Below, in pieces: positions 35 through 43,208 of a DNA stretch of 43,656 nucleotides. A program made the translations under genes and the position numbers. The notes under the pieces were generated by a model, which did not search any database, had not been told where the DNA came from, and saw only the letters and a list, made by a program, of their open reading frames with translations. Position 1 is the stretch's first letter. Every line of letters starts with the position of its first letter. The DNA is from a virus. The stretch covers positions 179,055-222,710 of the IMG/VR virus record IMGVR_UViG_3300010352_001565; one strand, 5' to 3'.

Positions 35-316
35 CTAGGAACTCCGTCTAGTACTGACGATCGAATCAACGCCATGGGGTATGAACTCCTCACTGTAGGA
101 AAAATCACGATAAACAACCAAATCGATTGAGTTCTCCGTGGCATGAGAGAAATCTTTTACTACGGCGGATGCGCGGTCATTATCGCCGCATCCGCAATGG
201 CATGCCTTGGAGTCATCATATTTGGATGGTATTCGATCAAGTGGTCGGTCAGGCGCGTCTTCAAGACAGAAGTGTCTGCGGTTGAAATTGCGCATAAAGT
301 AACAACTTACTAGCAA
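35..316 (-). CDS. hypothetical Cys-rich protein (93 aa), transcribed away from promoter P1
   Basis: It is the only ORF longer than 60 aa in the first 350 bp. The plus strand has only an 18-aa ORF here. It has a CHCGCG Cys cluster. I recognise no homology. Confidence 0.25.
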   Translation of the reverse strand: MLVSCYFMRNFNRRHFCLEDAPDRPLDRIPSKYDDSKACHCGCGDNDRASAVVKDFSHATENSIDLVVYRDFSYSEEFIPHGVDSIVSTRRSS

Positions 317-353
317 ATAAATGTTTACAATTTCATGACGGCATGATAGAGTT
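311..353 (+). promoter_or_regulatory. conserved phage promoter copy 1 (variant -10)
   Basis: The sequence is agcaaataaatgTTTACAatttcatgacggcaTGaTAGAGT. It shares the A-rich upstream block, the TGTTTACAA -35 and a TGnTAnAGT extended -10 with the six other copies. The ATG of the first gene (359) lies 7 nt after the -10. Confidence 0.55.
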
Positions 354-358
354 CTGCC

Positions 359-1354
359 ATGAAATCTGTTTACATGGAACAGCGCGGATCATCCGGCGAT
401 GTTCAGCACAACAAGTTTTTTGAGCTCAAAGACGACGGTCGCACCGTGATCGCCACCTGGGGAGCCATTAACACCAAAGGACAATCAAAGGTCCTTGTGG
501 AATCGGAAGACCCTGCAGTACGCCAAGCGGCGTGGGACAAAAAGTTCAAGGAAAAAGCTCACCGCAAAGACAAGCCTTACGTCGTCATTAAAAAGGACGG
601 CGAACAGGTGGAAGACCGCCCATCTGCTGACGGGCGGCGATGGGGATTGGAAGTTGAGACCCACTCTAACCTGGAGCTTCGCGAGATCGCAAGGCGCATG
701 CAGGAACGCGGTCTTAAAGTCAACCTTGAATCGGGGCGCTACTTCCACTCGACAGGCGCAACATGGGATATTAAGCGCGACGGGTCATGCGGGTATGAGT
801 TCGCGAGCCCAATTTCCTCTGGGGAGCGCGGAATTTTCGACGCCAAAGTCGCGGTCGAAAAAATCCGAGAAGTTTGCCCGAACGCTGTGAACTCTAACTG
901 CGGCGTGCACGTGACTGTAGATGTCTCGGACCACAGCCCTCGAGACCTAAAGCGCCTTGCTGTTGGCTATCTCCGCGCACAGGAGCACTTCTACACTCAG
1001 TGCAACGAGTCGCGCCAGCAAAACCGCTACTGCAAGCGCAACCCGACGCAGAACATCAGCCAAATGATCGCCATGCACCCGGACAGCATCCAGCGCATTC
1101 TTGATCTTGCTGGTGGATGGAGAAACCACGATGACCGCTACCATGGTCTAAACTTCACCAGGGTCTTCTCGATCAAGGTTGTTGAGTTCCGCATGCTCGA
1201 ATCGACTGTGGCCATCCGCAAGGTTGGCGCGTGGATCGAGATGTGCGTGGGATTTGTGGACGGTCTCAAGAAATCCGGCGTCGAGTTCAAGTCAACGGGA
1301 CAGTTCTCAGAAGAGACTTTCAACCGCATACTTTCAGGAACCTTTACTGTCTAA
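359..1354 (+). CDS. amidoligase (GCS2 / COOH-NH2 ligase, glutamine-synthetase-like fold), paralog A
   Basis: Three motifs characteristic of the phage 'putative amidoligase enzyme' family are present in order: G-hEhE (WGLEVETH), G-hHhxh (CGVHVTVDV) and hEhR (VVEFRMLEST). ORFs 1739-3157 and 11647-12708 share the same three motifs in the same order. Confidence 0.6.
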   Translation: MKSVYMEQRGSSGDVQHNKFFELKDDGRTVIATWGAINTKGQSKVLVESEDPAVRQAAWDKKFKEKAHRKDKPYVVIKKDGEQVEDRPSADGRRWGLEVETHSNLELREIARRMQERGLKVNLESGRYFHSTGATWDIKRDGSCGYEFASPISSGERGIFDAKVAVEKIREVCPNAVNSNCGVHVTVDVSDHSPRDLKRLAVGYLRAQEHFYTQCNESRQQNRYCKRNPTQNISQMIAMHPDSIQRILDLAGGWRNHDDRYHGLNFTRVFSIKVVEFRMLESTVAIRKVGAWIEMCVGFVDGLKKSGVEFKSTGQFSEETFNRILSGTFTV

Positions 1355-1357
1355 CTT

Positions 1358-1732
1358 ATGGAAAAGAAGAAATCGCCAGGTCAACTCGCGTACGAAGCCC
1401 ACCACGCTTACCTCAATAGCAACCCCGATTTCAGGTATGATTCTAAATCGCCTTGGGAGAACGCTACTGAGGATGTGAAAAAGGCATGGGAACTTGGCGC
1501 GGCTGCGTGCCGCCGTCCTTTGGCTGAAAAGCTCTACAGCGCGAGGCATTACGTTACCCGTCTCCTTATCTGCTATCGGGATCACCTACTTGGGACCTGG
1601 TACGAAGACACCGCAAAAGGATGCGGCATCTCCGCGGATGGATGCGGGTTTCTCGAGCACACCTACCGCTGGGACAATCCTGGCGATAAAGGTGCCGATA
1701 AGGTTGTGGATGCGCTTGCCAGTTCTGACTGA
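1358..1732 (+). CDS. hypothetical protein (124 aa) inside the amidoligase cluster
   Basis: The ATG is 4 nt after the upstream stop. Composition is coding-like. I recognise no motif. Confidence 0.5.
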   Translation: MEKKKSPGQLAYEAHHAYLNSNPDFRYDSKSPWENATEDVKKAWELGAAACRRPLAEKLYSARHYVTRLLICYRDHLLGTWYEDTAKGCGISADGCGFLEHTYRWDNPGDKGADKVVDALASSD

Positions 1733-1738
1733 CGTGAT

Positions 1739-3157
1739 ATGCCTCGGACTAAGCTAACATACGGAATCGAGTTGGAGTGCACTAAGCTCATGCCCAACGC
1801 GGCTGAGATCATTGCACGCCGCGAGTTTGACAACCATTACGACAACTCCATCAAAGGAAACGATGGCGAGGATCTCCCGCGCGGAGAAGGTGGCGGATCT
1901 GAACTCGTCACCAAGCCTCTGATCATTGAAGCTTACTTGCACGATCGCAAAGCCGTGCTGAACGACCGGAACGATACCAAAGCGGTTGTCCGCGACCTGT
2001 GCAGCTGCGCGCAGTCCGTAAACAAATCGTGTGGTCTGCATATCCACATCGGCTGTCCGCTGGAGAGCACTGGGCGTAGCACTCAGATGAGGAGCCGCTG
2101 GAATCCAGAGCAGACGCGGACGTTTCTCGCCATCGCGCTTGCTCTCGAGGATAAGATGTTTGACCTCTGCCCTCCGAGCAGAAGGAACAACAGCTACTGC
2201 AAAACGATTCGCGAGTTATACACCAACGCAGAGCTTGAGGCCTTTCACCCCACGGGAGAAGTTGTCGCCCGTAAGTGGGACAACGCCAAGCGCTACTGCT
2301 GGTTTAACATCGTCGAGACTCTCCGGATTGACAACGTCCCGTCGTCTCCAGGAACCGTCGAGATTCGCATGCTTGGAGCAGTGCGCAGGTTTGAATACAT
2401 TTGGTCCTGGATTAACCTCTGGCTCAAGATCGGAACTTATGTGGCATTTGCTACTCCAGCTTCTGCGATAATGAGCTGCGTACATTCTGGGGCGCTAGAC
2501 GAGGACATTGAGGCAGTGAGGACCGCGAAGAATTCGAAAGTTTCTCCGGCCGCTGAGCGGTCTCCGAGCATTTCGCGAATTGACGACGAGCATCCGAGAA
2601 ACGGCAGGTCTTTGCCTGTGTTCAACCCTACTCACCAAGCGTGGGAAATTCCAGCGACTCCAAGCTGGTCAGAGTTTCCTGGTGGTGCTGAAGACGGCGG
2701 ATACTCGGGAACGCAGATCAGATACTCTGACAGTGCGGAGACCGACAGCCAGCGGCAACAACGAATGGTTCAGGATTTAGTGAACGCATCTCAGCGGTCT
2801 CGCGAGGTGGCCCAAGCGGCTCCAGCTCCTGCCGCAACTCCAGCTCCTGCCGCAACTCCTGCTCCCGCTCCAGAACCCGCACCTTTACCCCCTCCTCCGC
2901 AACGACGACGAGGGCTTAGGCCGATTCAAGAGCGCATTCGCGATGCTGTTCGAGCTGAGCGCGCAAATGCACAGCAGGAGAACGCGCAGCAAGAGGAGAA
3001 CGTTCAATCAACTCCTCCATCCTACCGCGTGGTTGGAACATCCACCGGTCGATTAACTTCTTCCGGATCGAACGTGACTAGCAGACCGCGAGAGGAGAGC
3101 GAGGGCGGAGACCACTTTAGCGTCCTTGACTACGATGGCTTTGGCGAGCACTATTAA
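1739..3157 (+). CDS. amidoligase paralog B with a Pro/Ala-rich low-complexity C-terminal extension
   Basis: Carries YGIELECT, CGLHIHIGC and VEIRMLGAV. In the amidoligase / gamma-glutamyl-cysteine-ligase-2 fold these correspond to the metal-binding Glu pair, the His pair and the ATP-binding Arg. About 150 C-terminal residues are AAPAPAATPAPAATPAPAPEPAPLPPPP-like, encoded by an 18-bp tandem repeat at about 2821-2870. Confidence 0.6.
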   Translation: MPRTKLTYGIELECTKLMPNAAEIIARREFDNHYDNSIKGNDGEDLPRGEGGGSELVTKPLIIEAYLHDRKAVLNDRNDTKAVVRDLCSCAQSVNKSCGLHIHIGCPLESTGRSTQMRSRWNPEQTRTFLAIALALEDKMFDLCPPSRRNNSYCKTIRELYTNAELEAFHPTGEVVARKWDNAKRYCWFNIVETLRIDNVPSSPGTVEIRMLGAVRRFEYIWSWINLWLKIGTYVAFATPASAIMSCVHSGALDEDIEAVRTAKNSKVSPAAERSPSISRIDDEHPRNGRSLPVFNPTHQAWEIPATPSWSEFPGGAEDGGYSGTQIRYSDSAETDSQRQQRMVQDLVNASQRSREVAQAAPAPAATPAPAATPAPAPEPAPLPPPPQRRRGLRPIQERIRDAVRAERANAQQENAQQEENVQSTPPSYRVVGTSTGRLTSSGSNVTSRPREESEGGDHFSVLDYDGFGEHY

Positions 3158-3202
3158 ATAGTTGCAAAAAAGTGTTTACAATTTTCCGTGGCGTGATATA
3201 GT
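3155..3202 (+). promoter_or_regulatory. conserved phage promoter copy 2
   Basis: The sequence is aatagttgcaaaaaagTGTTTACAattttccgtggcgTGaTATAGT. An ATG at about 3209 opens a 14-codon leaderless mini-ORF that overlaps the start of the GATase gene. Confidence 0.65.
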
Positions 3203-3240
3203 AACAATATGAATTTTGAATTTAACCAAAAGGATAAACG

Positions 3241-4278
3241 ATGTGCGCAATAATTGGTTGGGCCGGAAAGATCCCAAAAGGCCTGCTGACCCGCATGCTG
3301 ATCGGGGCTGAAACCCGAGGCAAGGATTCGACTGGACTCGCTTTTCGAGCAGTTGAAGATGGGAAGACATGCAATCTATGCTATCGCCACATCGTCCCTG
3401 CCCGCACCTTCGTTGACATCCACAAGGACTTCGTGGGAGACGCCCGGCGTTCATTCCGCGGCATTGCTCACACTCGCAATGCATCTCCTGGAATGCCGAT
3501 CGATAACTCGAACGCGCACCCATACGTCTATCCGTGGGAAAACATGGGCAAGTATTACTTTGCGCACAACGGGCGAATCCAAAACTGGAAAGTTATCAAA
3601 GCGGAGCAGATTGAAATCTACTCCAGAGAGCTGAACGAGCTGATCTCAGAATTTGTGGCGCTTACGGCATCTGGCGAGAAGCCAATGACCGCTGAAGAGG
3701 TTAAGGTCGTCCTGACTGCCCTTGCGAAAGCTGAGCGCGAGCCTGTCTCAAAAGAGCAGGATGCTCTGAAAGCACTCGCTGAGGACAAGTTCAACGCCGC
3801 TCAGGGAATCGCCGCCCGTCTTCGCTACGTCGAAAATGCGACAACAGACTCGATGATTCTCGGACCGTGCATCGAGAACCGCGACTTCAGCGAAGTTGAC
3901 GGTTGCATGGCGCTGGTCTGGATGAAAGCAGACAACGTCTATACCTTCAGGAGCGCTAAAGAAGCTGTTGCGGCGACCGTCGTTTGGAAATACAAAAAGC
4001 CAGCGTCCGGAGAACCGGCAGACGACCAGCTTGTCACCATTGTTGCCAGTACGAAAGAGATTATCGAGAAGTCATTCGACAAAATCGCGGACGCTGTTGA
4101 CTCTGACATCGCGTTCATCAACTACGACGAGGGGCGCATTTACCGGCTTATGCCCAACACCATGGTTGATGAAGGGCGCGTTCCTGTCCACCAGGCAATT
4201 GAGGACGAGTTTTCATCATCGGTCGTTGAAACCGAAACCGCTGAGCAGATCAAAATTGAAGACGCGGGAACCAAATGA
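3241..4278 (+). CDS. class-II (Ntn-hydrolase) glutamine amidotransferase-like protein
   Basis: The N-terminus is MCAIIGW, so Cys becomes residue 1 after Met removal, the nucleophile position in GATase type 2. It also has HTRNASPG and YFAHNGRIQNW (an HNG-I-N-like motif). An AAGGA RBS lies 8 nt upstream. Confidence 0.6.
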   Translation: MCAIIGWAGKIPKGLLTRMLIGAETRGKDSTGLAFRAVEDGKTCNLCYRHIVPARTFVDIHKDFVGDARRSFRGIAHTRNASPGMPIDNSNAHPYVYPWENMGKYYFAHNGRIQNWKVIKAEQIEIYSRELNELISEFVALTASGEKPMTAEEVKVVLTALAKAEREPVSKEQDALKALAEDKFNAAQGIAARLRYVENATTDSMILGPCIENRDFSEVDGCMALVWMKADNVYTFRSAKEAVAATVVWKYKKPASGEPADDQLVTIVASTKEIIEKSFDKIADAVDSDIAFINYDEGRIYRLMPNTMVDEGRVPVHQAIEDEFSSSVVETETAEQIKIEDAGTK

Positions 4279-11200: not shown

Positions 11201-11365
11201 GTGCTCAAGCTCACATTTGGTGACAACTATGACACGTCATGGTTGTCATTTGTTCCTCTGGCTGGAGATTGCGAAGTTGGTCTCAACTACCTCGATGCGA
11301 AGAAAGTTCCTCAGCACGGCGAGATTGACTGGGACAAGCTTTTGGCACCAGCAGCCGCTCACTAA
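8174..11365 (+). CDS. family A DNA polymerase with an N-terminal family-4 UDG-like domain and a 3'-5' exonuclease domain
   Basis: The exonuclease motif is SYDTETNG. The polymerase motifs are RLSCSDPNLQQLPR, KVVNFLTGYGGGAFGL (motif B) and VHDSLVVD (motif C). The N-terminal ~250 aa resemble UDG family 4 (GEIGSDGPPMLIRKLVQEMGF...WAPATLC, HPP), but the GEAPG-type motif A is degenerate (DSVSGKED). Confidence 0.85.
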   Translation: MGMRSSIAFFENMERAARKPKQIYLDPQGQQLSLKDVDKKWRDTIIYHNGTENRGGNIVTTFDPENPLGTRLLEPGPDSPVCAKCALYEQGAQHPFMKPFGAEDPLVTVVFDSVSGKEDSRGEIGSDGPPMLIRKLVQEMGFDASRIRWAPATLCSARTGKLPNYSTKGNHCKIHLIQDIEQHPPKMIMTVGSAALGLLSFKSNAQDWGGRVLTYRGWPDDWLTDPDYMLDRPDPRDPKTSLTRGHPIMGKAPEGFRIPIVPIQSPRMVYMTQNQNVIKRWKSHVKTAFEMALQGVPPKVYDRAYWNMSVDPDEIAENLLYLINHPGTLTSYDTETNGVRPWAVDAAIVFMMFRWTDEDGNPKSIGFPWNYPNSPLINYLPELAPLVLEALYASDLIGHNITFDVLFTYANVPGANLVKLANAAKWDTWHMAYVMRQQRGTLGLEMIAYEWVPDLAGYEEDMTLLIELLRDLLHPGAGKGGHYANCPRDKWDTHLKPYVMGDVEVAYCAKPKIEAKLGTARTYRMPLADPTRRGRFRLFEPPPRSWVYPNVVSPAARMLMNMMGRGMHVDIEELARQEDIFPKKIREARDKLRAVDPKIIEWCQQMEETEPGWELDLEKKEHLKTILFDSRLLNLPVNRITESGQKLFGDTPEDLQGLPREKLVEYAALDKFTLNMLSVEHPQVRPLQEYKKIFKAYTTYIRPLRNAFSDKKHGGVDKKRRMEIQHLMRDGCVHASFKLTGTRGGRLSCSDPNLQQLPRDGLIKRIYTSRFGKRGCVYQGDLSQIELRLLAAACGDSSMVDAYQRGIDLHALTHSKIYSKAYEECTNEFMEWLQAHGRDSEAKKVKLERKAAKVVNFLTGYGGGAFGLQTALANDQIYKTLEECEALLEAFFDGYPAMRRYLSYYKDFIQQNGVAVSILGRVRIFEEVFGDDPKAKNKALRAGCNHLIQSTASDLMLICLTAIENILTNEGLESQMVCTVHDSLVVDAVREELPVVHDIVYGVLNNIPDVLKLTFGDNYDTSWLSFVPLAGDCEVGLNYLDAKKVPQHGEIDWDKLLAPAAAH

Positions 11366-11412
11366 AAATAGTTGCAAATAAATGTTTACAAATTTTAGTT
11401 TCGTGATATAGT
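11363..11412 (+). promoter_or_regulatory. conserved phage promoter copy 3
   Basis: The sequence is aaaatagttgcaaataaaTGTTTACAaattttagtttcgTGaTATAGT. The -10 sits inside the palindrome CGTGATATagtcATATCACG. The ATG at 11422 is 9 nt after the -10. Confidence 0.7.
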
Positions 11413-11421
11413 CATATCACG

Positions 11422-25872: not shown

Positions 25873-25903
25873 CGGCGCTCCGTAAGGGCGCCGATTTTAT
25901 TTC
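25873..25903 (+). terminator. rho-independent terminator
   Basis: CGGCGC-tccgtaagg-GCGCCG followed by ATTTTATTT. Confidence 0.5.
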
Positions 25904-26092
25904 CTTCTTGCACACTGGGCATATTGGGGGCTTCACACCTGTCAGTTGCTGCGCCGCACTCTTGATCGCGCCCATGGTCAAACGAACGCAGACGTAGAAG
26001 GTTACAGCAATGAGGGAAGCCAACCCACACATGAGGACTACCCAAAAGCTGATTTCGCGCGCAATATCCATACTCTTTTGGAGAACAAAACT

Positions 26093-26136
26093 TTTTTGCA
26101 AAAAAGTGTTTACAAATTTCCGAAACGTGATATAGT
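26093..26136 (+). promoter_or_regulatory. conserved phage promoter copy 4
   Basis: ttttttgcaaaaaagTGTTTACAaatttccgaaacgTGaTATAGT. The ATG at 26143 is about 8 nt after the -10. Confidence 0.7.
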
Positions 26137-29449: not shown

Positions 29450-29478
29450 GGCGCCGTTCAAAAGACGGCGCCTTTTTA
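29450..29478 (+). terminator. rho-independent terminator
   Basis: GGCGCCGT-tcaaaag-ACGGCGCC followed by TTTTT. Confidence 0.55.
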
Positions 29479-29480: not shown

Positions 29481-29532
29481 CTCAAAAATAGTTGCAAATA
29501 AATGTTTACAAATTTCCGTAGCGTGATATAGT
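29481..29532 (+). promoter_or_regulatory. conserved phage promoter copy 5
   Basis: aaaatagttgcaaataaaTGTTTACAaatttccgtagcgTGaTATAGT. A leaderless 13-codon mini-ORF (MIANNPASALRAA) starts at about 29539. Confidence 0.7.
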
Positions 29533-29577
29533 AGCGCCATGATCGCGAACAATCCCGCAAGCGCATTACGCGCCGCA

Positions 29578-31668
<2,091 letters not shown>

Positions 31669-32186: not shown

Positions 32187-32607
32187 GGTCGCAAAGAACT
32201 GGTTGAATTGAACTTAGACGCGCGCGCAAATCACTTTCGATTGCCGCGACTGTGTCGTTACTGAGAACAAAAGGCTGTTTGGCCTTAACTATCAGCTCAT
32301 CGCAGCGTTCATTTCCAATTGTTTGCCTTAACCACGCTACCGATTCCAATGGGCTTCCATGCCAGCTTGTCCCTCGCTTCTTATGGCACGAAAAGCATAG
32401 CGCAACGGCGTTGGAGGGATCCCAGCGGAGCACTAGGATCTCGCGTGGGATGATGTGGGAGGTGTCTACCTTAACATCTGGAACTCCGCGCCCGCACCAC
32501 TGGCAGACCCGGTCGTCGCGCTCTAGGATGAGCTGGGAGAATAACCGGTCAAGCTTCCGCTTGGCTTTTGCAGGGTTTAGCTTCTTGGGCTTTTTAGATT
32601 TCGCCAT
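32164..32607 (-). CDS. HNH homing endonuclease
   Basis: CQWCG ... HIIP ... N ... LCFSCH (the HNH and zinc ligands). The N-terminus is basic. Confidence 0.75.
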   Translation of the reverse strand: MAKSKKPKKLNPAKAKRKLDRLFSQLILERDDRVCQWCGRGVPDVKVDTSHIIPREILVLRWDPSNAVALCFSCHKKRGTSWHGSPLESVAWLRQTIGNERCDELIVKAKQPFVLSNDTVAAIESDLRARLSSIQPVLCDHETTPTS

Positions 32608-35287: not shown

Positions 35288-35302
35288 TTAGGTTAGCGCG
35301 GC

Positions 35303-35345
35303 AATACTAAAAAGTGTTTACAAAATGCTGAAAGCGTGATATAGT
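35303..35345 (+). promoter_or_regulatory. conserved phage promoter copy 6
   Basis: actaaaaagTGTTTACAaaatgctgaaagcgTGaTATAGT. The spacer is 17 bp. Confidence 0.65.
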
Positions 35346-35364
35346 GGGTGCGTGAAGAAATAGC

Positions 35365-35952: not shown

Positions 35953-36205
35953 TAGGAGGTTCGGCTTTGGCTTTCACCGGAGGTTGCTCGGCTTTCACCG
36001 CGGTAACCTCATTCACCAGCTCTTGGTAGTCTGCGATAATGGCTTGGGCTTCCTGAAGCATCGCCGCAGTCATGATCATCACATTGGCTCTAGCATTAAA
36101 TTGTGCGGCGCGGCGGCCAAGAGTTAGTTTATCCACATTCTTTAGAACATGTCGATTAAATTTTCGCTGTGCTACACGTCGTGCAGAGCGCACCTGATCA
36201 AGCAA
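35933..36205 (-). CDS. possible small minus-strand protein in the gap upstream of the GT2 gene
   Basis: The plus strand has a 195-bp ORF-free gap here. The minus ORF has a coiled-coil-like sequence. Its low-complexity end overlaps the stop of the NTase gene. Confidence 0.25.
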   Translation of the reverse strand: MLDQVRSARRVAQRKFNRHVLKNVDKLTLGRRAAQFNARANVMIMTAAMLQEAQAIIADYQELVNEVTAVKAEQPPVKAKAEPPTTPSAP

Positions 36206-37747
36206 ACCGTTAACCTCTGGAAATCCAGGGCAAAAGATCCCAGCCAGGTCGAGGTCATCGTTGCTGTCGATGCCACTGATACAGCCGGCATCGAGGTCTG
36301 CGAGCAGATGAGAAAGAGCAACGGAGACAACGACACGTTCGACTTCGTTATCCAGGGGTCAGAGCCGTTCAATTGCGTCAAGGGCTGGAACCTTGCAGCT
36401 GAATACTGCCGCGGCGACGTCCTGATCGCGATCTCTGATGACTTCTCACCTCCTGGACACTGGGACTCTCAGCTCATCGGAAGCTTAAGACCTGGATGGT
36501 GGTCTGAAGAGTGCGTGGTCCACGTAAACGATGGCTATGTGAAGACCATATGCACTCTTCCGATTATCACCAGAAAGCGCTATGACAAGTTTGGGTACAT
36601 CTACCACCCAAGATACCAGTCGATGTTCTGCGACACTGAGCTTACAGAGCGCGCATACCAAGACGGAGTGGTTATCGAAGCCATGCACCTCCTGTTTGAA
36701 CACGAGCACCCTGACTGTGGCAAGCGGTCCGGAGACGCTTTTGACGCCCACCACGCTTCAAAACAGAGGTGGAACGAGGGAGAGGCGATTTTCAACGAGA
36801 GGAAGAAACTCGGTTTCCCAAGTGACTCTGAGCTTGAGCAGCGCAACTCGTTTGTGGCATATTTCCAAGTCACGAAAGATGACTTCTGCTTGCTTGAAGT
36901 TTGCTTGAGGCTTGTCAGCGAGGGAGTAAAGTCGTTCCGGTTCTGCATCCCAAGCGAGTACTGGTCTGGAAAGGTGGTAAGCCAAGAAGAAATCGCGCAG
37001 GTCGAAGACGTTCATAAGCGCCTGGTCGCTGACGGACTCAACTCAAAGCTGAAGATCTTTGACGTCAAGAGTCACCGCACAGGAAAGGGACTGCTGGTAG
37101 ACGTTGAGGCCGGTGTCCGTAATGATTCTCTGGAGTGGATCCGCAGCGACGGCTTTAAGCACATCCTCGTGGTTGATGGGGACGAGCTATGGCGCACTGG
37201 GACGCTCACGCTAATCCAGCGCTGCATTAACAGCGTTCAACCGGATTCCATCAGCTGCAGGTGCATTCCAACCATCGGCCTTCCAGGACTTCCGATCGAA
37301 GGGGCTCAGGATCTCGTTGGGGTGTACATCGGAAACGGAAAAATCTTCGATAGCTGCAGGACTCCTCGCGGGAACAAGAAAGCTCTGATTGACTCGCATA
37401 ACGTCATCCATTTTACAGCCACGCGGAAAACGATGGATGAGATCATCAAGAAGCACCGAGAATCAGGTCACTACGACGACCCAAACTACGACTTCGAGGG
37501 ATGGATCTCCAGAGTGCTTCCAAACGTGCATCCAGGGATGCGCAACGCCCACATGTACAGGCCTTACCAAATCTGGCCGTTGATCAGAGCATGGACTGAC
37601 GATGAACTCGCAGACATCCCTGAATCAGTTAAAAAGTACCTTTCGCTCGCTAAGCTTGAACCTGTAAAGACTGCCAAGCAGCCAAAACGCCGCATGATAC
37701 CGTTTGCGGAGTCCCTGTCGCGCCCCAGCAACTACCGGCACGTCTAA
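36149..37747 (+). CDS. GT-A fold (GT2-like) glycosyltransferase with a C-terminal extension
   Basis: N-terminal SIKFSLCYTS ... EVIVAVDATD ... KGWNLAAEYCRGDVLIAISDDF matches the GT2 NxGxAxARNxGxxxAxGxYIxFLDxDD block. It is 532 aa. A second DGDE lies in the C-terminal half. Confidence 0.55.
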   Translation: MSIKFSLCYTSCRAHLIKQTVNLWKSRAKDPSQVEVIVAVDATDTAGIEVCEQMRKSNGDNDTFDFVIQGSEPFNCVKGWNLAAEYCRGDVLIAISDDFSPPGHWDSQLIGSLRPGWWSEECVVHVNDGYVKTICTLPIITRKRYDKFGYIYHPRYQSMFCDTELTERAYQDGVVIEAMHLLFEHEHPDCGKRSGDAFDAHHASKQRWNEGEAIFNERKKLGFPSDSELEQRNSFVAYFQVTKDDFCLLEVCLRLVSEGVKSFRFCIPSEYWSGKVVSQEEIAQVEDVHKRLVADGLNSKLKIFDVKSHRTGKGLLVDVEAGVRNDSLEWIRSDGFKHILVVDGDELWRTGTLTLIQRCINSVQPDSISCRCIPTIGLPGLPIEGAQDLVGVYIGNGKIFDSCRTPRGNKKALIDSHNVIHFTATRKTMDEIIKKHRESGHYDDPNYDFEGWISRVLPNVHPGMRNAHMYRPYQIWPLIRAWTDDELADIPESVKKYLSLAKLEPVKTAKQPKRRMIPFAESLSRPSNYRHV

Positions 37748-37992
37748 TGGACACCGACCACCTCATTTGGGAAGAGAAGAAGATCCTCGACGACTTAAGA
37801 GACTTAAGGCCAGGAGAGATCAAGCTATGGACGCTTATAAACAAAGCCTCGGCTGATCTTCCAAACCTCGGTCAAACCGCTCGTGAGAATCGCCAGGTGG
37901 TGACGTCGCTAGTTAGCCGACTCATGCGCGAGAAAAAGATCAAGCGAAACAGAAAAACAAACATGGTTCGCATTAGCGAGGTCTTCGCATGA
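37747..37992 (+). CDS. small basic protein (81 aa), possible winged-helix regulator
   Basis: A TAATG overlap couples it to the GT2 gene. The helix-turn-like segment is KLWTLINKASADLPNLGQTARENRQVVTSLVSRL. Confidence 0.35.
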   Translation: MDTDHLIWEEKKILDDLRDLRPGEIKLWTLINKASADLPNLGQTARENRQVVTSLVSRLMREKKIKRNRKTNMVRISEVFA

Positions 37993-38005
37993 AGTTCTTT
38001 TAGCA

Positions 38006-39262
38006 ATGAGCGACACCAAAAAACGCACCCCTCACAATTCTCAGTGGTCAATCGTAACTCTTAAAGAGCCAGTCCTGTGGTCCAGGACGGACAGCGAAGT
38101 GTGGATGCTGAATCCAACAGTTCGATACGTCATGAACTCAGATCAGCTCGAGCACCTCAACCACCTTGTTGACACTTGCTCAGACCTGCGAAATTCCGCG
38201 TTCCACAAGCCTCTTAACGGCCTTGCGAATCTCGCTCAGAAAAAGATTCTTGTCGAGCGCTATCGCGGACGCGGAGTCGGAGACCTGCTATTCATGACAG
38301 GTCCTCTGAATTACATCCGGCACATTTCAGGACACAGCGCGAAAATAGAGTTTTATGCTCTCGCTGAGAGGTCGCAAGTTCTCCAGCTGCATCCCGCTCT
38401 CGCTCACAAGAGCACGCTTGCTGGACCGCTGATCTACGACACCATCAACCAGTATGACTACCAGTGGTTCTCGGACTGCGTAACTGAATACGACGAAGAG
38501 AAGGATCAGCTCAACGTGTACGACGCGCTGTTCAAGCAAATCGGCATCGATCCGCAGAGCGTCGGAGCAGAGTTCAAGCGACCAAGCATTCACCTTGACG
38601 AACAGGACTTCGCGAATCTTGACACTTTCTACTACTTTGTATATGGAGATCGGCACATCGACTTGCGCAAGACAGGCTACTACGTGGTGGCTCCTCTGAG
38701 CAATGGGACGCTGAGATCGCTGCCGTACGCCTCCTGGCTAGAAATCATCTCTGAGCTGTCGAAGAAGCGCCCTGTAGTTGTGATCGGCCAGATGTCTGAA
38801 AGAGTTCCTCCGATGGACATGACTGGTGGAGAATTCTACTCCCAGGTTAACCAGCTTGCTCCGAACGTTATCAATGCCATGGGAAACACCCAGCTTCGCG
38901 TCGTGTCAGCCATTATCGCGAGAGCAACTGGCGTGGTGTGCCTGGACTCTGGCCCACTCTATATTAGCCAAGCTTTGCGCACGCCTGCCATCTCAATCTG
39001 GGGACCGCATCATCCTGGCGTTCGCATCGGATACGACAAGGACTACATGGAGCTTGCTATCTGGAATTCGAGTGCATGCAGCTACGCACCGTGCTTCGCG
39101 TACCACGGGTTTCCGACTCAAAAATGCCCACAAGGAGATTCTCAGCGCATTTGCGAAGTTCTAAAGGTCTCGCCCGTCGAAAGCGTGATAAATAAGCTTG
39201 AGAAAATCGAATCTGGAAATCCGTCCGTCACATCTTTCAAGGCCGCTAAACCCACCAAGTAA
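38006..39262 (+). CDS. GT9-family (ADP-heptose:LPS heptosyltransferase-like, GT-B fold) glycosyltransferase
   Basis: GVGDLLFMTGPL is the GT9 N-terminal motif. NAMGNTQLRVVSAIIARATGVVCLDSGPLYISQALRTPAISIWGPHHP matches the RfaF/WaaC C-terminal donor-binding block. Confidence 0.6.
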   Translation: MSDTKKRTPHNSQWSIVTLKEPVLWSRTDSEVWMLNPTVRYVMNSDQLEHLNHLVDTCSDLRNSAFHKPLNGLANLAQKKILVERYRGRGVGDLLFMTGPLNYIRHISGHSAKIEFYALAERSQVLQLHPALAHKSTLAGPLIYDTINQYDYQWFSDCVTEYDEEKDQLNVYDALFKQIGIDPQSVGAEFKRPSIHLDEQDFANLDTFYYFVYGDRHIDLRKTGYYVVAPLSNGTLRSLPYASWLEIISELSKKRPVVVIGQMSERVPPMDMTGGEFYSQVNQLAPNVINAMGNTQLRVVSAIIARATGVVCLDSGPLYISQALRTPAISIWGPHHPGVRIGYDKDYMELAIWNSSACSYAPCFAYHGFPTQKCPQGDSQRICEVLKVSPVESVINKLEKIESGNPSVTSFKAAKPTK

Positions 39263-39722: not shown

Positions 39723-39731
39723 TACAAATTT

Positions 39732-41243
39732 ATGAGTAATCAAGAAAAAAGTCCAGCATATCTGTCTCTCCTCGAGGAAGAGACAAGTTACATGCAAGCT
39801 AACACCTCTAACAAGGTGAAGCGCATCAAGATCCCTCTCGGACACGCGTGGCTCATGCGGTTCCTTCCGGTTGAACTGGGCCCGCGCAAATCGTTTTTTG
39901 CTCGCGTCGCAAATCACTGGGTTAATCGCCGTCCCATTCCTTGCCGACGCCACACTCATCCCGACTTTGGCGGAGACCCTCACGCTCCCTGCGCCATGTG
40001 CGATGCTTCCGAAGAGCTTAATGGCCACGGATCTCAGCGCATCTCGTCGATTGGATACGGCGCGCGGTCCATCAGCCAGTGGGTTTTGTTCGCACTGGTC
40101 TTCGAAAAAGATGACGGCGAGCGCAGCGACGTTATTAAAGCTCCTGACATGTGGGACGCTCATGAGTTTCAGATCACGAAAAACTCGTTTGAGGATCTCC
40201 TGAGCATCTTCAGAAAGGGAACGCGCCGCTGCCCGCTGAGCATCCTTGACCTCGTTCAAGGTCAGGACATTTGGGTTACGCAGAAGAAAACTGGCATACG
40301 CTTCGCTCCTGAAATGCCGAGCGCGATAACCAACAACCAAGACAAGATGCAGTCGATCGTCGACAAAATCTGGTCCGGAATTAAGTTCCAAGAGCCAAAG
40401 TTCCTTAGCTCTCGCGAACTTGAAGACGCCGCTGACAAGCTGCGAGACTCAGCTGAAGACGCTGGTCGTGGCCGTGGAGACGACCGTGATCGTGGTCGCC
40501 GAGGTGAAGACGAAGTTGAAGACTACGGGCGCGGACGCCGAGACGACAGAGGTCGCGGGCGCGACGATGACCGCGGAAGTCGCGGGCGTGACGACGATCG
40601 AAGCAGGGGCGGATACGACTCTGAAGACGATGCTCCTCGCGGGCGTCGCGGCGATGACGCTCCTCGCAGCAGGCGCGGAGAAGATGACGATGCTCCTCGC
40701 GGGCGCCGTGGAGATGATGAAGATGCTCCTCGCGGACGACGCGAAGAAGAGCCAAGAGGCCGGCACGACGACGAAGATGACGCTCCTCGCGGGAGGCGCG
40801 AGCGAGACGCCGATTCCGGACGAGATGACCGAGGGCGCGAAGATGACGACCGTGGGTCAAGAGGACGCAGTGACGATCGAGGACGCGGCGAAGACGACAA
40901 CGAAGAACGCTCTGCTCCGTCTGCTTCTCGCCGAAGCATGACTCCTCCGTCGGTGTCTCAGACTCCGCGCCAGGCACCTCCGTCTGCTTCAAAAACGCTT
41001 CCTCCTCCACCTGCGCGCGGCGGGACTAACGGAGCGCAAGAGCAGTCGATTGATGATGACGAAGCCATTCCAGAGGAACGCAGAGATCCCGCTCCTCCAG
41101 AGTCTATGCCAGAGCCCGAGCCTGAAGCTCAAGCTCCTGCAGACGCTCCTCCGCCCGTGGCTGCAGCTGGCGCTACGCCGTCAGCTCCCCGCTTGTCGCA
41201 GCGCATCCGCTCTGGAATAAACAGCCTTGACACCAGGAAATAA
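39732..41243 (+). CDS. T4 gp32-like zinc-binding ssDNA-binding protein with a long RG/D-rich disordered C-terminal tail
   Basis: RFLP at residues 43-46. Zinc ligands C71, H74/H76, C87 and C90 (CRRHTHPDFGGDPHAPCAMC); C87 and C90 are exactly as in gp32. The tail (residues 245-392) contains six DDAPRGRRG(D/E)D repeats. Confidence 0.65.
   Translation: MSNQEKSPAYLSLLEEETSYMQANTSNKVKRIKIPLGHAWLMRFLPVELGPRKSFFARVANHWVNRRPIPCRRHTHPDFGGDPHAPCAMCDASEELNGHGSQRISSIGYGARSISQWVLFALVFEKDDGERSDVIKAPDMWDAHEFQITKNSFEDLLSIFRKGTRRCPLSILDLVQGQDIWVTQKKTGIRFAPEMPSAITNNQDKMQSIVDKIWSGIKFQEPKFLSSRELEDAADKLRDSAEDAGRGRGDDRDRGRRGEDEVEDYGRGRRDDRGRGRDDDRGSRGRDDDRSRGGYDSEDDAPRGRRGDDAPRSRRGEDDDAPRGRRGDDEDAPRGRREEEPRGRHDDEDDAPRGRRERDADSGRDDRGREDDDRGSRGRSDDRGRGEDDNEERSAPSASRRSMTPPSVSQTPRQAPPSASKTLPPPPARGGTNGAQEQSIDDDEAIPEERRDPAPPESMPEPEPEAQAPADAPPPVAAAGATPSAPRLSQRIRSGINSLDTRK
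40464..40908 (+). repeat. imperfect tandem ~33-bp repeats in coding sequence (gacgatgctcctcgcgggcgccgtggagatgat) encoding the SSB tail
   Basis: All six frames are open here, which explains the spurious overlapping ORFs 40405-41010(-), 40523-40939(-) and 40420-40941(+). Confidence 0.55.
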
Positions 41244-41245
41244 AT

Positions 41246-42643
41246 ATGGCCAAAGCTGCGCCTGAAAAGCCAACGAAGCCAACCAAGAAACTCAAGGCTG
41301 GCTTCTCTAACAGCGACCTTAAAGATCGAATCGTAGCCAGCGTCAAGAGGATTGCTCCTCGCAATAAAGACGCTGGATCTATTGAGGTTTGCCGCACTAA
41401 CAAGGAAATCTTGTCAAGGGTTCGCTACGTCCTGACCACTGGCATAAAGCCATTCGACGATGCTGTCGGCGGTTTTCCATTTGGACGCGTAGTCGAGCTC
41501 TACGGGTTGGAGTCTTGCGGTAAGACTGCAGTCTGCATGCGCTCTGCAGTCAGAGCTCAGAAGCGTGAGATCTACGAGCGCATCAAAGTCGAGGACACCG
41601 AAAAGATCGAGTATGTCTTGCGCAAGATCCCGAATGACGCTGACGTGACAGTGCTCTACATTGACAACGAGCAGTCCCTTGAAGATGACGAGAAGATTGT
41701 CATTGAGGACGTTGAAATCGATGCCGTGCTTGCTCGCTGCGACACCGTGGAGCTTCTGTTCAAGACGATTGACAAGACTCTCGACGAGATCTCAGCGTTC
41801 GAGAAACAGACTGGACGCCAGCAGTTCGTGGTAGTCATCGTAGACACCATCGCAGGAACATCTTCGAAAGAAGAAATGACGAAGGACTGGGGAAAAGACG
41901 ACTACTCTCGCCAGCCAAAGCAGCTCCGCGAAGCGTTCCGCAGAATGACGCGCAAGATCAACCGCCAGAACGTCTGCATGATCTGCACCAACCAGGTGTC
42001 GGACTCTTACAAGGCCGCCCAGGCTGGAAAGAAGGGTAACAAGTCGACGCTTCCACGAGACCAGGACTTCTCAACGTTCGGTGGAAGGGCACTGAAGTTC
42101 TACGCGACTGTCCGCATCTTCATGTTCAAGATTCCTGACGTCAAGTATACGCTTGTCAAAGGAGCCCAGTTTGCCGCTGGTTTCTTGGTGGGTTTCTTCA
42201 CATCAAAAAACAGGCAGGTAAAACCGCTGCGCGAAGGTCGCATGGCGCTGCTATTCGATCGCGGGCTTGATAACACATTCAGCATCCTTGAGAGCTTGAT
42301 CTACTACGGATTCGCGGTGTATGACAAGGAAAATGGAGGTTACGCGTTCAGGTTTAACGCTTGGAAGATTCCAATGACCACCTTCGGTGGGTCTAACGCG
42401 ATTGACCTTGAAGAGGGAGATGCTGCTGAGGAGGAAAGCCGATCAGAGCGCAAGAAGAATCCGCGCATCGAATCTCGAGCTGAATGGCCCGCGTTTTACG
42501 AGGCCCACAAAGCAGACTTCGACGCCATGTGGGCTGCGGCAAAGAATTACATCTTCGCCACTGAGGGCATTGGCGGTTTCGTTGCTTCTCGCGAAGATGC
42601 AGAAGATGACACCGACGCTGACAGCACTGTAGTTGAAGATTGA
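41246..42643 (+). CDS. RecA/UvsX-like recombinase
   Basis: LTTGIKPFDDAVGGFPFGRVVELYGLESCGKT is the RecA P-loop signature. VVVIVDTIAGT is Walker-B-like. The C-terminal tail is acidic. Confidence 0.7.
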   Translation: MAKAAPEKPTKPTKKLKAGFSNSDLKDRIVASVKRIAPRNKDAGSIEVCRTNKEILSRVRYVLTTGIKPFDDAVGGFPFGRVVELYGLESCGKTAVCMRSAVRAQKREIYERIKVEDTEKIEYVLRKIPNDADVTVLYIDNEQSLEDDEKIVIEDVEIDAVLARCDTVELLFKTIDKTLDEISAFEKQTGRQQFVVVIVDTIAGTSSKEEMTKDWGKDDYSRQPKQLREAFRRMTRKINRQNVCMICTNQVSDSYKAAQAGKKGNKSTLPRDQDFSTFGGRALKFYATVRIFMFKIPDVKYTLVKGAQFAAGFLVGFFTSKNRQVKPLREGRMALLFDRGLDNTFSILESLIYYGFAVYDKENGGYAFRFNAWKIPMTTFGGSNAIDLEEGDAAEEESRSERKKNPRIESRAEWPAFYEAHKADFDAMWAAAKNYIFATEGIGGFVASREDAEDDTDADSTVVED

Positions 42644-42644
42644 T

Positions 42645-43160
42645 ATGCCAAGAATTATTGAATACGAAGACTCTCCCGACCTTCAGACGATGATCGTCGG
42701 GATGGTAACCAACACATCCTACGCCGAATTTGCTCCTCTACGCGAGCATGAAGTGCGAATCACATCATGCTTCAAGTGCGCGTACAAGGAGCAGTCGGAG
42801 GATGCTGACCCACAAACTGCTATCTCTGGGCCGCACCCAGCGAAGCTCCAGCAATTCAAAGGTCCGATCAAGCTGCAAGTCAGCTCAGACTACTGCGTTG
42901 TCATGGACTACTGCTTCTGGTTGAATGCTCCTCAGAACAAGAAGGTGGCGGCAGTTCACCACGCGCTGATGCAGATCGAGGTGCGCACAAAGCGTGAAAC
43001 CGTAGAGCTCAAGACCCGCAGACCGGATGTCGTTGAGTTCTCGCACACCATCACGCGGTTTGCCAACGACGTGGACTCCATATCTGGACTCCTACCGGTC
43101 CTCATGCAAGCTGGTGAGCGCTTCCGCGCGCAAATCAGTTCTAACCAGCAGACCGCTTAA
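42645..43160 (+). CDS. hypothetical protein (171 aa), possibly a recombination accessory protein
   Basis: The ATG is 2 nt after the recA-like stop. The track start at 42633 is a TTG. Confidence 0.45.
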   Translation: MPRIIEYEDSPDLQTMIVGMVTNTSYAEFAPLREHEVRITSCFKCAYKEQSEDADPQTAISGPHPAKLQQFKGPIKLQVSSDYCVVMDYCFWLNAPQNKKVAAVHHALMQIEVRTKRETVELKTRRPDVVEFSHTITRFANDVDSISGLLPVLMQAGERFRAQISSNQQTA

Positions 43161-43162
43161 AT

Positions 43163-43208
43163 AAAAGTTAACAAAAAGTGTTTACAAATTCTAAGTTCGT
43201 GTTAAATT
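43163..43208 (+). promoter_or_regulatory. conserved phage promoter copy 7 (variant -10 TGtTAAATT)
   Basis: gttaacaaaaagTGTTTACAaattctaagttcgTGtTAAATT. Confidence 0.55.

What the first reader, a model, noticed from the sequence alone, without database searches (positions are those of the whole stretch)
311..43208. Seven copies of a ~45-bp conserved near-consensus sigma70 promoter with an UP element and an extended -10, all on the plus strand
The consensus (A)AATAGTTGCAAAtAAaTGTTTACAAaTTtccg.agcgTGaTATAGT occurs at about 311, 3155, 11363, 26093, 29481, 35303 and 43163. It has -35 TTTACA, a 16-17 bp spacer and TGnTATAGT, the hallmarks of strong host-RNAP (early or middle) promoters. Conservation extends well beyond the hexamers: TTGCAAA upstream, and ATTTCCG..GCG in the spacer of four copies. 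This suggests an additional factor-binding site, for example for a phage or host regulator. The copies are spaced to head the operons for the amidoligase genes, GATase, amidoligase C, the zinc-ribbon and tRNA/PTH2 block, ligase, the NTase and glycosyltransferase genes, and the final partial gene.
Basis: seen in the sequence. Interest (0 to 1): 0.6.

Follow-up and report, generated by a model that had tools for sequence, protein, structure and literature searches.

The report
T4-style early promoters fused to start codons
Seven near-identical strong bacterial-type promoters sit in front of gene blocks in an uncultured T4-related phage, and most are placed so that transcription should begin on the start codon itself, giving messenger RNAs with no leader; this is a tidy example of a known kind of phage control signal rather than a new kind.

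Summary
There are exactly seven copies, all on the + strand and all between genes. They score 51-66 bits against a matrix built from the same seven sites, and nothing else on either strand exceeds -5 bits.

Each copy has an A/T-rich upstream tract, G+TTTACA, a 16-17 bp spacer, TGn and TATAGT (TAGAGT in P1, TAAATT in P7). This is the published anatomy of T4-type early promoters: GTTTAC at -36..-31, an A-rich -40s, a GT/TG extension and -10.

The phage carries T4-type gp13, gp21 and gp23 homologues but uses a family A DNA polymerase.

An ATG or GTG lies exactly 6 nt after the -10 in five of seven copies, and 9 nt after in a sixth, so the predicted +1 is the start codon. Three of these open real genes. 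Three open 3-14 codon mini-ORFs that end at or just past the next gene's start codon.

Relatives with 43-63% PolA identity keep GTTTACAA, a -10 and an ATG about 6 nt downstream, but not the spacer. That argues against an extra factor site.

Best reading: promoters for the host primary-sigma RNA polymerase that produce leaderless mRNAs. No transcription data exist and the host is unknown.

The parts
303..352 (+). P1. A/T-rich upstream tract 303-322, G+TTTACA 323-329, 17-bp spacer, TGA, -10 TAGAGT 347-352. Predicted +1 is 359, the ATG of the WGR+Amidoligase_2 gene 359-1354.
   Evidence: In Pfam the WGR domain starts at residue 4, which fixes the start codon.
3154..3202 (+). P2. G+TTTACA 3174-3180, 16-bp spacer, TGA, TATAGT 3197-3202. 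Predicted +1 is 3209.
3209..3253 (+). Leaderless 14-codon mini-ORF (MNFEFNQKDKRCAQ). It overlaps the start of the class-II GATase gene (ATG 3241, preceded by AAGGA).
11364..11412 (+). P3, immediately after the PolA stop codon. TATAGT 11407-11412. The ATG of the 73-aa gene is at 11422, 9 nt after the -10. The -10 lies within the inverted repeat CGTGATAT-AGTC-ATATCACG (11402-11421).
25873..25893 (+). Intrinsic-terminator-like hairpin (8 pairs, 7 G-C, then a T-rich tail). It closes the P3 block about 200 bp before P4.
26088..26136 (+). P4. TATAGT 26131-26136. Predicted +1 is 26143, the ATG of the 71-aa Cys-rich gene 26143-26358. This block also holds the tRNA(CUA) and PTH2.
29450..29472 (+). Intrinsic-terminator-like hairpin GGCGCCGTTCAAAAGACGGCGCC followed by TTTTT, directly upstream of P5.
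29484..29532 (+). P5. TATAGT 29527-29532. Predicted +1 is 29539. It matches a copy upstream of the window (L014 position 4523) across the whole promoter core.
29539..29580 (+). Leaderless 13-codon mini-ORF (MIANNPASALRAA). Its stop overlaps the ATG (ATGA) of a 39-codon ORF, 29577-29696, which ends 4 nt before the ligase ATG at 29701.
   Evidence: The 39-aa gene was called in L007.
35296..35345 (+). P6. 17-bp spacer, TATAGT 35340-35345. Predicted +1 is 35352 (GTG).
35352..35363 (+). Leaderless 3-codon mini-ORF (GTG AAG AAA TAG). It ends 1 nt before the ATG of gene 35365-35952.
43160..43208 (+). P7, the most divergent copy. -10 is TAAATT, preceded by TGT. There is no start codon at +1; the next gene starts at 43242, giving a leader of about 27 nt. 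It is bracketed by GTTAAC palindromes at 43167 and 43216.
   Evidence: Gene call in L009 and L161.

Best explanation
These are strong promoters of the sigma70 / primary-sigma type and of the T4 early design. They have an A/T-rich UP-like tract, a -35 region reading GTTTACA, a 16-17 bp spacer, a TGn extension and a -10 TATAGT. RNA polymerase holoenzyme carrying the host's primary sigma most likely reads them before or during replication. They drive the rightward blocks of DNA-modification, replication and repair genes.

Transcription should start about 7 nt after the -10. In most copies that position is the A or G of a start codon. The first cistron would then be translated from a leaderless mRNA by direct ribosome binding to the 5'-terminal AUG. 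In three copies this first cistron is only 3-14 codons long and ends at or just past the next start codon. I infer that it hands ribosomes on to the real gene by termination-reinitiation.

Shown here: the sequence architecture, strand, placement, copy number and conservation in relatives. Inferred: which polymerase and sigma read the sites, the timing, the exact +1, leaderless translation, and the coupling.
For: 1. Architecture. All seven sites match the sigma70 consensus hexamers at 9-10 of 12 positions, and all have TGn. The scores are far above anything else in the window.

2. Placement. All seven are intergenic, co-oriented with the downstream genes, and absent from coding sequence and from the - strand.

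3. More copies in the same genome. Outside the window there are two full copies upstream (L014 positions 2573 and 4523), one on the unlinked fragment L117, and one degenerate copy downstream. The 8 kb leading into the gp21-like and gp23-like head genes has none. That fits a pre-late promoter class.

4. Conservation across the clade. Phages with 43-63% PolA identity carry T-run + GTTTACAA + 16-17 bp + (G)GTAnnnT. Some sit at the same positions as here: directly after PolA in L017, L137, L140, L144, L145 and L152, and in front of the GATase gene in L017, L138, L145, L149 and L152.
   - A control that does not presuppose the -10: of 37 GTTTACA sites with an AT-rich upstream in relatives, 27 have NANNNT at 16-18 bp. 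Only 18 of 87 sites without an AT-rich upstream do.

5. Start codon at the predicted +1.
   - ATG or GTG lies exactly 6 nt after the -10 in 8 of 11 copies of this genome and in 13 of 28 copies in relatives. The background frequency is 0.031 per position, giving P about 1e-10 and 6e-13.
   - In 17 of 28 relatives' copies the codon opens an ORF of at least 40 codons.
   - The start codons are pinned by protein domains. WGR starts at residue 4. Amidoligase_2 starts at residue 7. In L017, L145 and L149 the GATase begins Met-Cys directly 6 nt after the -10, and the N-terminal Cys is the nucleophile of class-II amidotransferases (established knowledge).

6. A TA-like -10 signal about 10 bp upstream of a start codon is the published signature of leaderless genes (PMC3160421).

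7. The predicted 5' ends fold weakly: mean -4.5 against -7.1 kcal/mol for background 40-mers, P = 0.01.

8. Shine-Dalgarno-like cores precede only about 11 of 54 starts, which I estimate is about the chance level. The phage does not depend on them.
Against: - There is no transcript mapping, and no host is known. Both the +1 position and the polymerase are inferred.
- The phage appears to encode a DNA hypermodification pathway: a thymidylate-synthase-like gene, four amidoligases, a GATase and glycosyltransferases. The injected DNA that polymerase meets may therefore carry modified bases, which a plain consensus match does not take into account.
- GTTTACAA is invariant across phages of 48-61% G+C, while the -10 drifts to CAAGAT or TAGGAT in relatives. 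That pattern would also suit a phage-encoded factor that recognises the -35 region.
- The copies within this genome are not independent. They share a spacer and even downstream bases (CCATGATCGYGAACAA in P4 and P5). The within-genome statistics are therefore inflated, and the argument rests mainly on the relatives.
- My list of relatives' sites was partly curated by eye.
- Low folding energy at the 5' ends is confounded by low G+C there.
Confidence: 0.7

Rival explanations
1. The sites depend on a phage-encoded factor. This could be a phage sigma, an activator replacing the sigma region 4 contact (as in MotA/AsiA-type appropriation), or a modified polymerase. GTTTACAA would be that factor's box, and the class would be middle rather than immediate-early.
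For: - GTTTACAA is the only strictly invariant block across the clade, while the -10 and the spacer drift.
- The genes driven are replication and DNA-modification genes, which in T4 are largely middle-class (PMC2988021).
- A 157-aa protein (24647-25120) has an N-terminal helix-turn-helix with a sub-threshold match to sigma70 region 4 (E 0.0026, 17.8 bits against a cutoff of 25.7).
- The genome is Shine-Dalgarno-poor, and one relative was binned with a Flavobacteriales MAG. If the host were a Bacteroidota member, from my own knowledge its primary sigma would not be expected to read this consensus.
Against: - The full set of UP-like tract, -35, TGn and -10 at canonical spacing is what host holoenzyme reads unaided. 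TTTACA is 5 of 6 to TTGACA.
- T4 early promoters carry the same GTTTAC and need no phage protein (PMC1524935, PMC2988021).
- T4 middle promoters lack a -35 and have the MotA box centred at -30. That is not seen here.
- The HTH match is below threshold and nothing links that protein to the motif.
- The MAG bins conflict (Azonexus, Flavobacteriales) and are weak evidence of host.
Confidence: 0.15
2. The conserved sequence around and upstream of the -35 is an operator for a dimeric regulator. In this genome TTGCAAA-N6-TTTACAA forms an imperfect inverted repeat that overlaps the -35.
For: - TTGCAAA and the complement of TTTACAA agree at 6 of 7 positions in most copies of this genome.
- P7 is additionally bracketed by two GTTAAC palindromes.
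- An HTH protein is encoded in the P3 block.
Against: - The left half-site and the spacer block are absent from relatives, which keep only a T-run before GTTTACAA.
- The half-site spacing of 13 bp is unusual for a dimeric HTH site (my own knowledge).
- The A-rich tract fits an alpha-CTD UP-like element and the A-rich -40s of T4-type early promoters (PMC1524935).
Confidence: 0.1
3. The ATG or GTG 6 nt after the -10 belongs to the promoter or initial transcribed sequence and is not a translation start. The transcripts would begin elsewhere and are not leaderless.
For: - In P2, P5 and P6 the ORFs opened at that codon are only 14, 13 and 3 codons long.
- P4 and P5 share 15 nt downstream of the -10, so the ATG could have been copied passively with the cassette.
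- P7 has no such codon.
Against: - In P1, P4, both upstream copies and L117, and in 17 of 28 relatives' copies, the codon opens the gene itself.
- The N-termini are fixed by domains and by the catalytic Cys of the GATase.
- These gene starts leave no room for a Shine-Dalgarno sequence or a leader between the -10 and the ATG.
- All three mini-ORFs end within 12 nt of the next start codon, which passive copying would not be expected to produce.
Confidence: 0.1
4. The repeats matter mainly as recombination cassettes like the PeSL promoter-terminator modules of T4-type phages. They would mediate gene shuffling, with promoter activity secondary.
For: - The copies are near-identical over 45-60 bp and show mosaic sharing of segments. 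P5 matches the upstream copy at L014 4523. L117 shares its spacer with P2 and its downstream bases with P5.
- PeSLs are built on exactly this kind of strong early promoter with an AT-rich upstream region (PMC2839356, PMC4122927).
Against: - Only P5 has an adjacent stem-loop terminator, and P4 has one about 200 bp upstream. The other five have none.
- Every other contig recovered for this genome is 99.99-100% identical to the window, so no insertion or deletion boundary could be examined.
- Two promoter positions are conserved next to core genes (PolA, GATase) across the clade, which points to a regulatory role.
Confidence: 0.05

Closest known systems
T4-type early promoters (Pe) of T4 and T4-like phages (RB69, RB49, 44RR, Aeh1)
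   Same: Both are sigma70-type promoters with all four elements (UP-like A-rich tract, -35, TGn, -10), called 'uber' promoters in PMC2988021. Both have the unusual -35 region GTTTAC at about -36 to -31, an A-rich -40 to -44, and a GT-rich stretch just before -12 (PMC1524935). Both occur as many near-identical copies in front of early genes and ORFans. For example, T4 position 11866 on the - strand reads GTTTACAAG...TGTTATAGT. The phage here also carries T4-type gp13, gp21 and gp23 homologues.
   Different: From my own knowledge, T4 early transcripts normally carry a leader with a Shine-Dalgarno sequence; here the start codon sits at the predicted +1. The phage replicates with a family A polymerase that is only about 25% identical to that of any cultured phage. 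No Alt, ModA, MotA or AsiA homologue was seen in the roughly 65 kb available. Activity and timing are untested.
PeSL cassettes (promoter-early stem-loop) of RB49/phi1, PST and nt-1
   Same: Both are repeated strong sigma70-like early promoters with an AT-rich upstream region, and both show high identity between copies within one genome (PMC2839356, PMC4122927).
   Different: The defining adjacent stem-loop is present at only one of the seven copies, or two if the hairpin about 200 bp upstream of P4 is counted. The link to insertion and deletion boundaries could not be tested.
Leaderless genes with a -10 box abutting the ORF (Actinobacteria, Deinococcus-Thermus; lambda cI from PRM)
   Same: A TANNNT box lies about 6-10 nt upstream of the start codon with no room for a Shine-Dalgarno sequence. 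This is the signature used to call leaderless genes (PMC3160421, PMC12340547). The lambda cI example is from my own knowledge.
   Different: Here the -10 is part of a complete, highly conserved UP-like/-35/TGn/-10 promoter repeated through a phage genome. In three copies the leaderless cistron is a mini-ORF that abuts or overlaps the next gene's start.

Membership tests
T4-type early promoter | -35 and -10 hexamers of the sigma70 type, separated by 16-18 bp | tested here: met
   TTTACA and TATAGT (or TAGAGT, TAAATT) with a 16- or 17-bp spacer in all seven copies.
T4-type early promoter | -35 region reads GTTTAC (about -36 to -31) rather than TTGACA (PMC1524935) | tested here: met
   G precedes TTTACA in all seven copies. 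GTTTAC spans -35..-30 (16-bp spacer) or -36..-31 (17-bp spacer), counted from the predicted +1. The +1 itself is inferred.
T4-type early promoter | TGn extended -10, or a GT-rich stretch 5' of -12 | tested here: met
   GTGA or ATGA precedes the -10 in six copies and GTGT in P7.
T4-type early promoter | A-rich UP-like tract around -40 to -44 | tested here: met
   AAAWAART lies directly upstream of GTTTAC in all copies. In relatives the tract is T-rich instead.
T4-type early promoter | Located 5' of ORFs in the right orientation, in a phage of the T4 group | tested here: inconclusive
   Orientation and placement are met. gp13-, gp21- and gp23-type genes are present. However, the replication module is PolA-based and far from any cultured T4-like phage.
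T4-type early promoter | Used by unmodified host sigma70 holoenzyme immediately after infection, without phage protein synthesis | not testable with these tools
   There is no host, no transcript data and no biochemistry.
PeSL promoter-terminator cassette | Stable stem-loop terminator adjacent to the promoter | tested here: not met
   Only P5 has one directly upstream (29450-29472). P4 has one about 200 bp upstream (25873-25893). The other five have none.
PeSL promoter-terminator cassette | Copies mark insertion, deletion or replacement boundaries between close relatives | tested here: inconclusive
   All twelve other contigs of this genome are 99.99-100% identical to the window, so there is no variation to examine.
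Leaderless gene (TA-led) | -10-like TANNNT signal about 10 bp upstream of the true start codon, with no Shine-Dalgarno sequence | tested here: met
   The gap between the -10 and the start codon is 6 nt in P1, P4 and both upstream copies, and 9 nt in P3. It is 5-7 nt in 17 of 28 relatives' copies that open real ORFs. Start codons are pinned by domain boundaries.
Leaderless gene (TA-led) | The 5' end of the mRNA coincides with the start codon | not testable with these tools
   Needs 5'-end mapping.

The most novel reading that the evidence does not exclude
A whole clade of uncultured T4-related large phages (contigs up to about 260 kb) may run its pre-late programme on promoter-start-codon fusions in a genome that almost lacks Shine-Dalgarno sequences. 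This would imply a dedicated translation strategy: 70S/leaderless initiation followed by termination-reinitiation through mini-ORFs and tightly packed genes. It might be supported by phage functions that remodel host translation, since an amber-suppressor tRNA and a PTH2 hydrolase sit in one of these blocks. The shared GTTTAC -35 variant in T4 and in this distant PolA-using clade would then be an ancestral or convergent device for capturing host polymerase, and not a peculiarity of E. coli phages tied to Alt.
Probability: 0.15. Interest if true: 0.65.

Novelty: new variant of a known kind. Interest (0 to 1): 0.4.

Why it matters
If correct, the T4 early-promoter design, including its odd GTTTAC -35, extends well beyond the cultured T4-like phages into an uncultured clade with a different replication module. 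That clade would couple the promoter directly to leaderless translation.

This gives a simple sequence rule for annotating operon starts and true start codons in these genomes. Gene callers disagreed on several starts: for example, in L017 a gene was called 78 nt downstream of the promoter-linked ATG.

It also supplies compact, strong promoter-plus-start cassettes that could be tested in heterologous hosts. Otherwise it remains an ordinary regulatory feature of a phage.

Tried and rejected
- An exact motif scan of IMG/VR gave five single hits in unrelated contigs of 31-64% G+C. These are chance matches.
Only one fragment, L117, held a real extra copy, so a genome-wide count was not obtained.
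- A close-relative search of IMG/VR with PolA found nothing. An alignment-based search then gave 23 relatives.
- The GTDB genome scan gave one 9-kb contig binned as Flavobacteriales. Another relative is labelled Azonexus. These bins conflict and I do not treat either as a host assignment.
- Scanning 50 kb of T4 with this phage's matrix found look-alike sites on the gene strand, but their scores (26.5, 25.3) were matched by shuffles of that AT-rich sequence (up to 25.6). This is an illustration, not a test. The T4 record carries no promoter features.
- The strain comparison for PeSL-like shuffling failed because all contigs are identical.
- PHROGs gave no hit for ten proteins. Pfam found no sigma factor, RNA polymerase subunit or ADP-ribosyltransferase in the window.
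- Rfam found only the tRNA.
- I considered Bacteroidota-type promoters (TTTG / TAnnTTTG, from my own knowledge) because of the Shine-Dalgarno-poor genome, and rejected them: no TTTG follows the TA in any copy.
- I considered N4-type hairpin promoters and rejected them: only P3 has a hairpin.

Full report
**Observation.** The motif is real and sharply defined.
- TTTACA-N15-19-TATAGT occurs five times against zero expected. The upstream 20-mer with up to 3 mismatches also occurs five times against zero expected.
- A two-block weight matrix built from the seven sites and scanned on both strands returns exactly those seven at 51-66 bits. The next best position anywhere is below -5 bits. The matrix was trained on these sites, so what is informative is the gap and the absence of weaker copies.
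- The -35 hexamers start at 324, 3175, 11385, 26109, 29505, 35317 and 43181. Spacers are 16 bp (P2-P5, P7) or 17 bp (P1, P6). TGn precedes every -10. The -10 is TATAGT, except TAGAGT in P1 and TAAATT in P7.
- All copies are on the + strand, in intergenic gaps of 45-268 bp, facing + strand genes. No other dispersed repeat family of comparable size exists in the window.

**What the window is.**
- It has no near match among 50,697 GenBank phage records. Its family A DNA polymerase is at most about 25% identical to any of them.
- Pfam finds several replication and repair genes:
  - DnaB-like and DEAD/Helicase_C_2-type helicases on the - strand;
  - PolA, NAD-dependent ligase and a RecA-like ATPase;
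  - PTH2 and an HNH endonuclease.
- Pfam also finds three Amidoligase_2 genes, a class-II GATase and glycosyltransferases.
- The same genome, 99.99-100% identical, occurs in ENA, JGI and Logan assemblies. In one sample it is split into contigs of 68 kb and 82.8 kb.
- Ten kilobases beyond the window lie a Peptidase_S77 (T4 gp21-type) gene and a Gp23-type capsid gene. A gp13-type gene is inside the window. This is therefore a distant member of the T4 structural supergroup with a different replication module.
- PolA homologues at 43-63% identity sit on many uncultured contigs of up to 230-260 kb.

**More copies, and where they stop.**
- Upstream of the window there are two further full copies (L014 positions 2573 and 4523). 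Downstream there is one degenerate copy (L009 position 13690). An unlinked 1.9-kb fragment, L117, has another.
- No copy lies in the 8 kb that runs into the head genes.
- The divergent gaps in front of PolA (7978-8173) and in front of the - strand helicase (22872-23080) have no copy. At least one other promoter class must exist.

- In P1, P2, P4, P5 and P6 an ATG or GTG lies exactly 6 nt after the -10. In P3 it lies 9 nt after. A sigma70-type polymerase usually starts about 7 nt after the -10, so the predicted +1 is the first base of the start codon.
- In P1, P3 and P4 that codon opens the annotated gene. The same holds for both upstream copies and for L117.
- The start codons are fixed by protein features. 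WGR begins at residue 4 of the P1 gene. Amidoligase_2 begins at residue 7 of the gene behind L014 position 2573.
- In P2, P5 and P6 the codon opens ORFs of 14, 13 and 3 codons. All three end close to the next start codon.
  - The P2 mini-ORF stops 10 nt past the GATase ATG.
  - The P5 mini-ORF stop overlaps an ATG (ATGA). That ATG opens a 39-codon ORF ending 4 nt before the ligase ATG.
  - The P6 mini-ORF stops 1 nt before the next ATG.
- Only about 11 of 54 gene starts have a Shine-Dalgarno-like core at a plausible distance, which I estimate is about the chance level.
- The predicted 5' ends fold weakly: mean -4.5 against -7.1 kcal/mol, P = 0.01. This is confounded by low G+C there.

**Comparative evidence.**
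- L017 (58% PolA identity) has five copies of TTTTTGTTTACAA, 16-17 bp, yAnGAT, then 6-9 nt to an ATG or GTG. Four of these codons are called gene starts; the fifth is in frame 78 nt upstream of the called start.
- The same architecture recurs in L137, L138, L140, L144, L145, L149, L154 and L156, and more loosely in others.
- The clade consensus is tTttTGTTTACAAa, about 11 unconserved positions, gGTAnnnT, 6 nt, ATG. Neither the spacer nor the TAGTTGCAAA block of the window genome is conserved.
- Two positions are shared across genomes: directly after PolA, and directly before the GATase gene. In L017, L145 and L149 the GATase starts Met-Cys 6 nt after the -10. The N-terminal Cys is the catalytic nucleophile of this enzyme class, so this is a strong constraint on the start codon.
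- Statistics:
  - A start codon at exactly 6 nt occurs in 8 of 11 copies of this genome and in 13 of 28 copies in relatives.
  - The background is 0.031 per position, giving P about 1e-10 and 6e-13.
  - 17 of 28 relatives' copies open ORFs of at least 40 codons.
- A control that does not presuppose the -10, comparing GTTTACA sites in relatives:
  - With an AT-rich upstream, 27 of 37 have NANNNT at 16-18 bp; without one, 18 of 87 do.
  - With an AT-rich upstream, 15 of 37 have a start codon 35-37 nt downstream; without one, 9 of 87 do.
- Copies within one genome are not independent, and part of the relatives' list was curated by eye. I rest the argument mainly on the relatives and on this control.

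**Comparison with what is known.**
- Hinton's review describes T4 early promoters as 'uber' UP/-35/TGn/-10 promoters with additional regions of consensus, read by unmodified host polymerase (PMC2988021).
- Nolan et al. state that early promoters of T4 and five T4-like phages share GTTTAC at -36 to -31, an A-rich -40 to -44 resembling an UP element, and a GT-rich stretch 5' of -12 (PMC1524935). The motif here matches each of these points.
- PeSL cassettes of RB49/phi1 combine such promoters with a stem-loop terminator and mediate gene shuffling (PMC2839356, PMC4122927). Here only P5 has an adjacent terminator (29450-29472), and P4 has one about 200 bp upstream. I therefore do not file the copies as PeSLs.
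- The -10-next-to-ORF signature of leaderless genes is established (PMC3160421; PMC12340547).

**Explanation and rivals.**
- I commit to host primary-sigma promoters of the T4 early design that yield leaderless first cistrons, with mini-ORF coupling where the gene start is set back (confidence 0.7).
- The main rival is dependence on a phage factor that recognises GTTTACAA (0.15). Three things suggest it: the invariance of that block across 48-61% G+C, a sub-threshold sigma-region-4-like HTH protein, and uncertainty about the host.
- The remaining rivals are that the +1 ATG is not translated (0.1) and that the repeats are chiefly recombination cassettes (0.05).
- A further caveat: the phage seems to hypermodify its DNA, so the template that polymerase meets may not be plain DNA.

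**Verdict.** This is a well-known kind of element in a new lineage, with a leaderless twist that is conserved across the clade. Interest is moderate (0.4).

Noticed in passing
window 27012-27086 (+); 27521-27907 (+): A tRNA with anticodon CTA (an amber suppressor; ARAGORN labels it Pyl, Rfam tRNA 64 bits) lies in the P4 block. A PTH2-type peptidyl-tRNA hydrolase lies 0.4 kb downstream. TAG is nevertheless the stop codon of 12 of 53 genes in the window.
   Followed up: partly
whole window (54 gene starts): The genome is Shine-Dalgarno-poor. Only about 11 of 54 starts have a GGAG, GAGG, AGGA or AAGG core at -17 to -7, which I estimate is about the chance level. Many genes abut or overlap the previous stop codon. 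This hints at a host or a strategy with little dependence on Shine-Dalgarno sequences.
   Followed up: partly
L014 1755-3603 and 5845-7392; window 359-4278, 11647-12708, 35365-39262: A gene set typical of DNA base hypermodification is present: a thymidylate-synthase-like gene, four Amidoligase_2 genes (one fused to WGR), a class-II GATase, a weak NTase-like match (DUF6036, sub-threshold) and several glycosyltransferases.
   Followed up: no
window 33630-34454; L161 18571-20070 and 20109-20516: T4-type structural homologues (gp13-like, Peptidase_S77/gp21-like, Gp23 capsid) occur in a phage that uses a family A polymerase. That polymerase is at most about 25% identical to any cultured phage's, and none of ten tested proteins hits a PHROG.
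   Followed up: partly
window 24647-25120 (+): A 157-aa protein has an N-terminal helix-turn-helix (LASLAAEFGVSEQAVYSAIQRA) and a sub-threshold match to sigma70 region 4 (E 0.0026). It is a candidate small transcription regulator encoded in the P3 block.
   Followed up: partly
window 43165-43174 and 43214-43223: P7, the most divergent copy, is bracketed by an 8-bp inverted repeat containing GTTAAC palindromes (AAGTTAACAA ... TTGTTAACAG), roughly at -48 and +3. These may be operator sites specific to this promoter.
   Followed up: no
window 11402-11421: The -10 of P3 lies inside a perfect inverted repeat, CGTGATAT-AGTC-ATATCACG. This also accounts for the 9-nt rather than 6-nt gap to the ATG.
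   Followed up: no
window 32164-32607 (-); 34454-35287 (+): An HNH endonuclease gene lies on the opposite strand among + strand genes. A sub-threshold GIY-YIG-like domain lies in the gene just before P6. Both are likely homing-endonuclease-type insertions.
   Followed up: no
window 40542-40800, inside gene 39732-41243: Imperfect tandem repeats of 27-60 nt encode an Asp/Arg-rich repetitive segment. Gene callers gave 483 or 503 aa for this gene in identical DNA.
   Followed up: no
PolA relatives P0002, P0005, P0007, P0012, P0018 and others: Many PolA homologues of the clade are 300-800 aa longer and carry intein or LAGLIDADG domains (PF14890, PF14528, PF05204). JGI names several of them as fused to a uracil-DNA-glycosylase-like region.
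   Followed up: no
L139 15074, L142 15863, L146 15096, L153 17667: A subgroup of more distant relatives shares a different upstream block (AGCATAAWTTTT) before GTTTAC and has no start codon at +1. This may be a second, orthologous promoter type.
   Followed up: no
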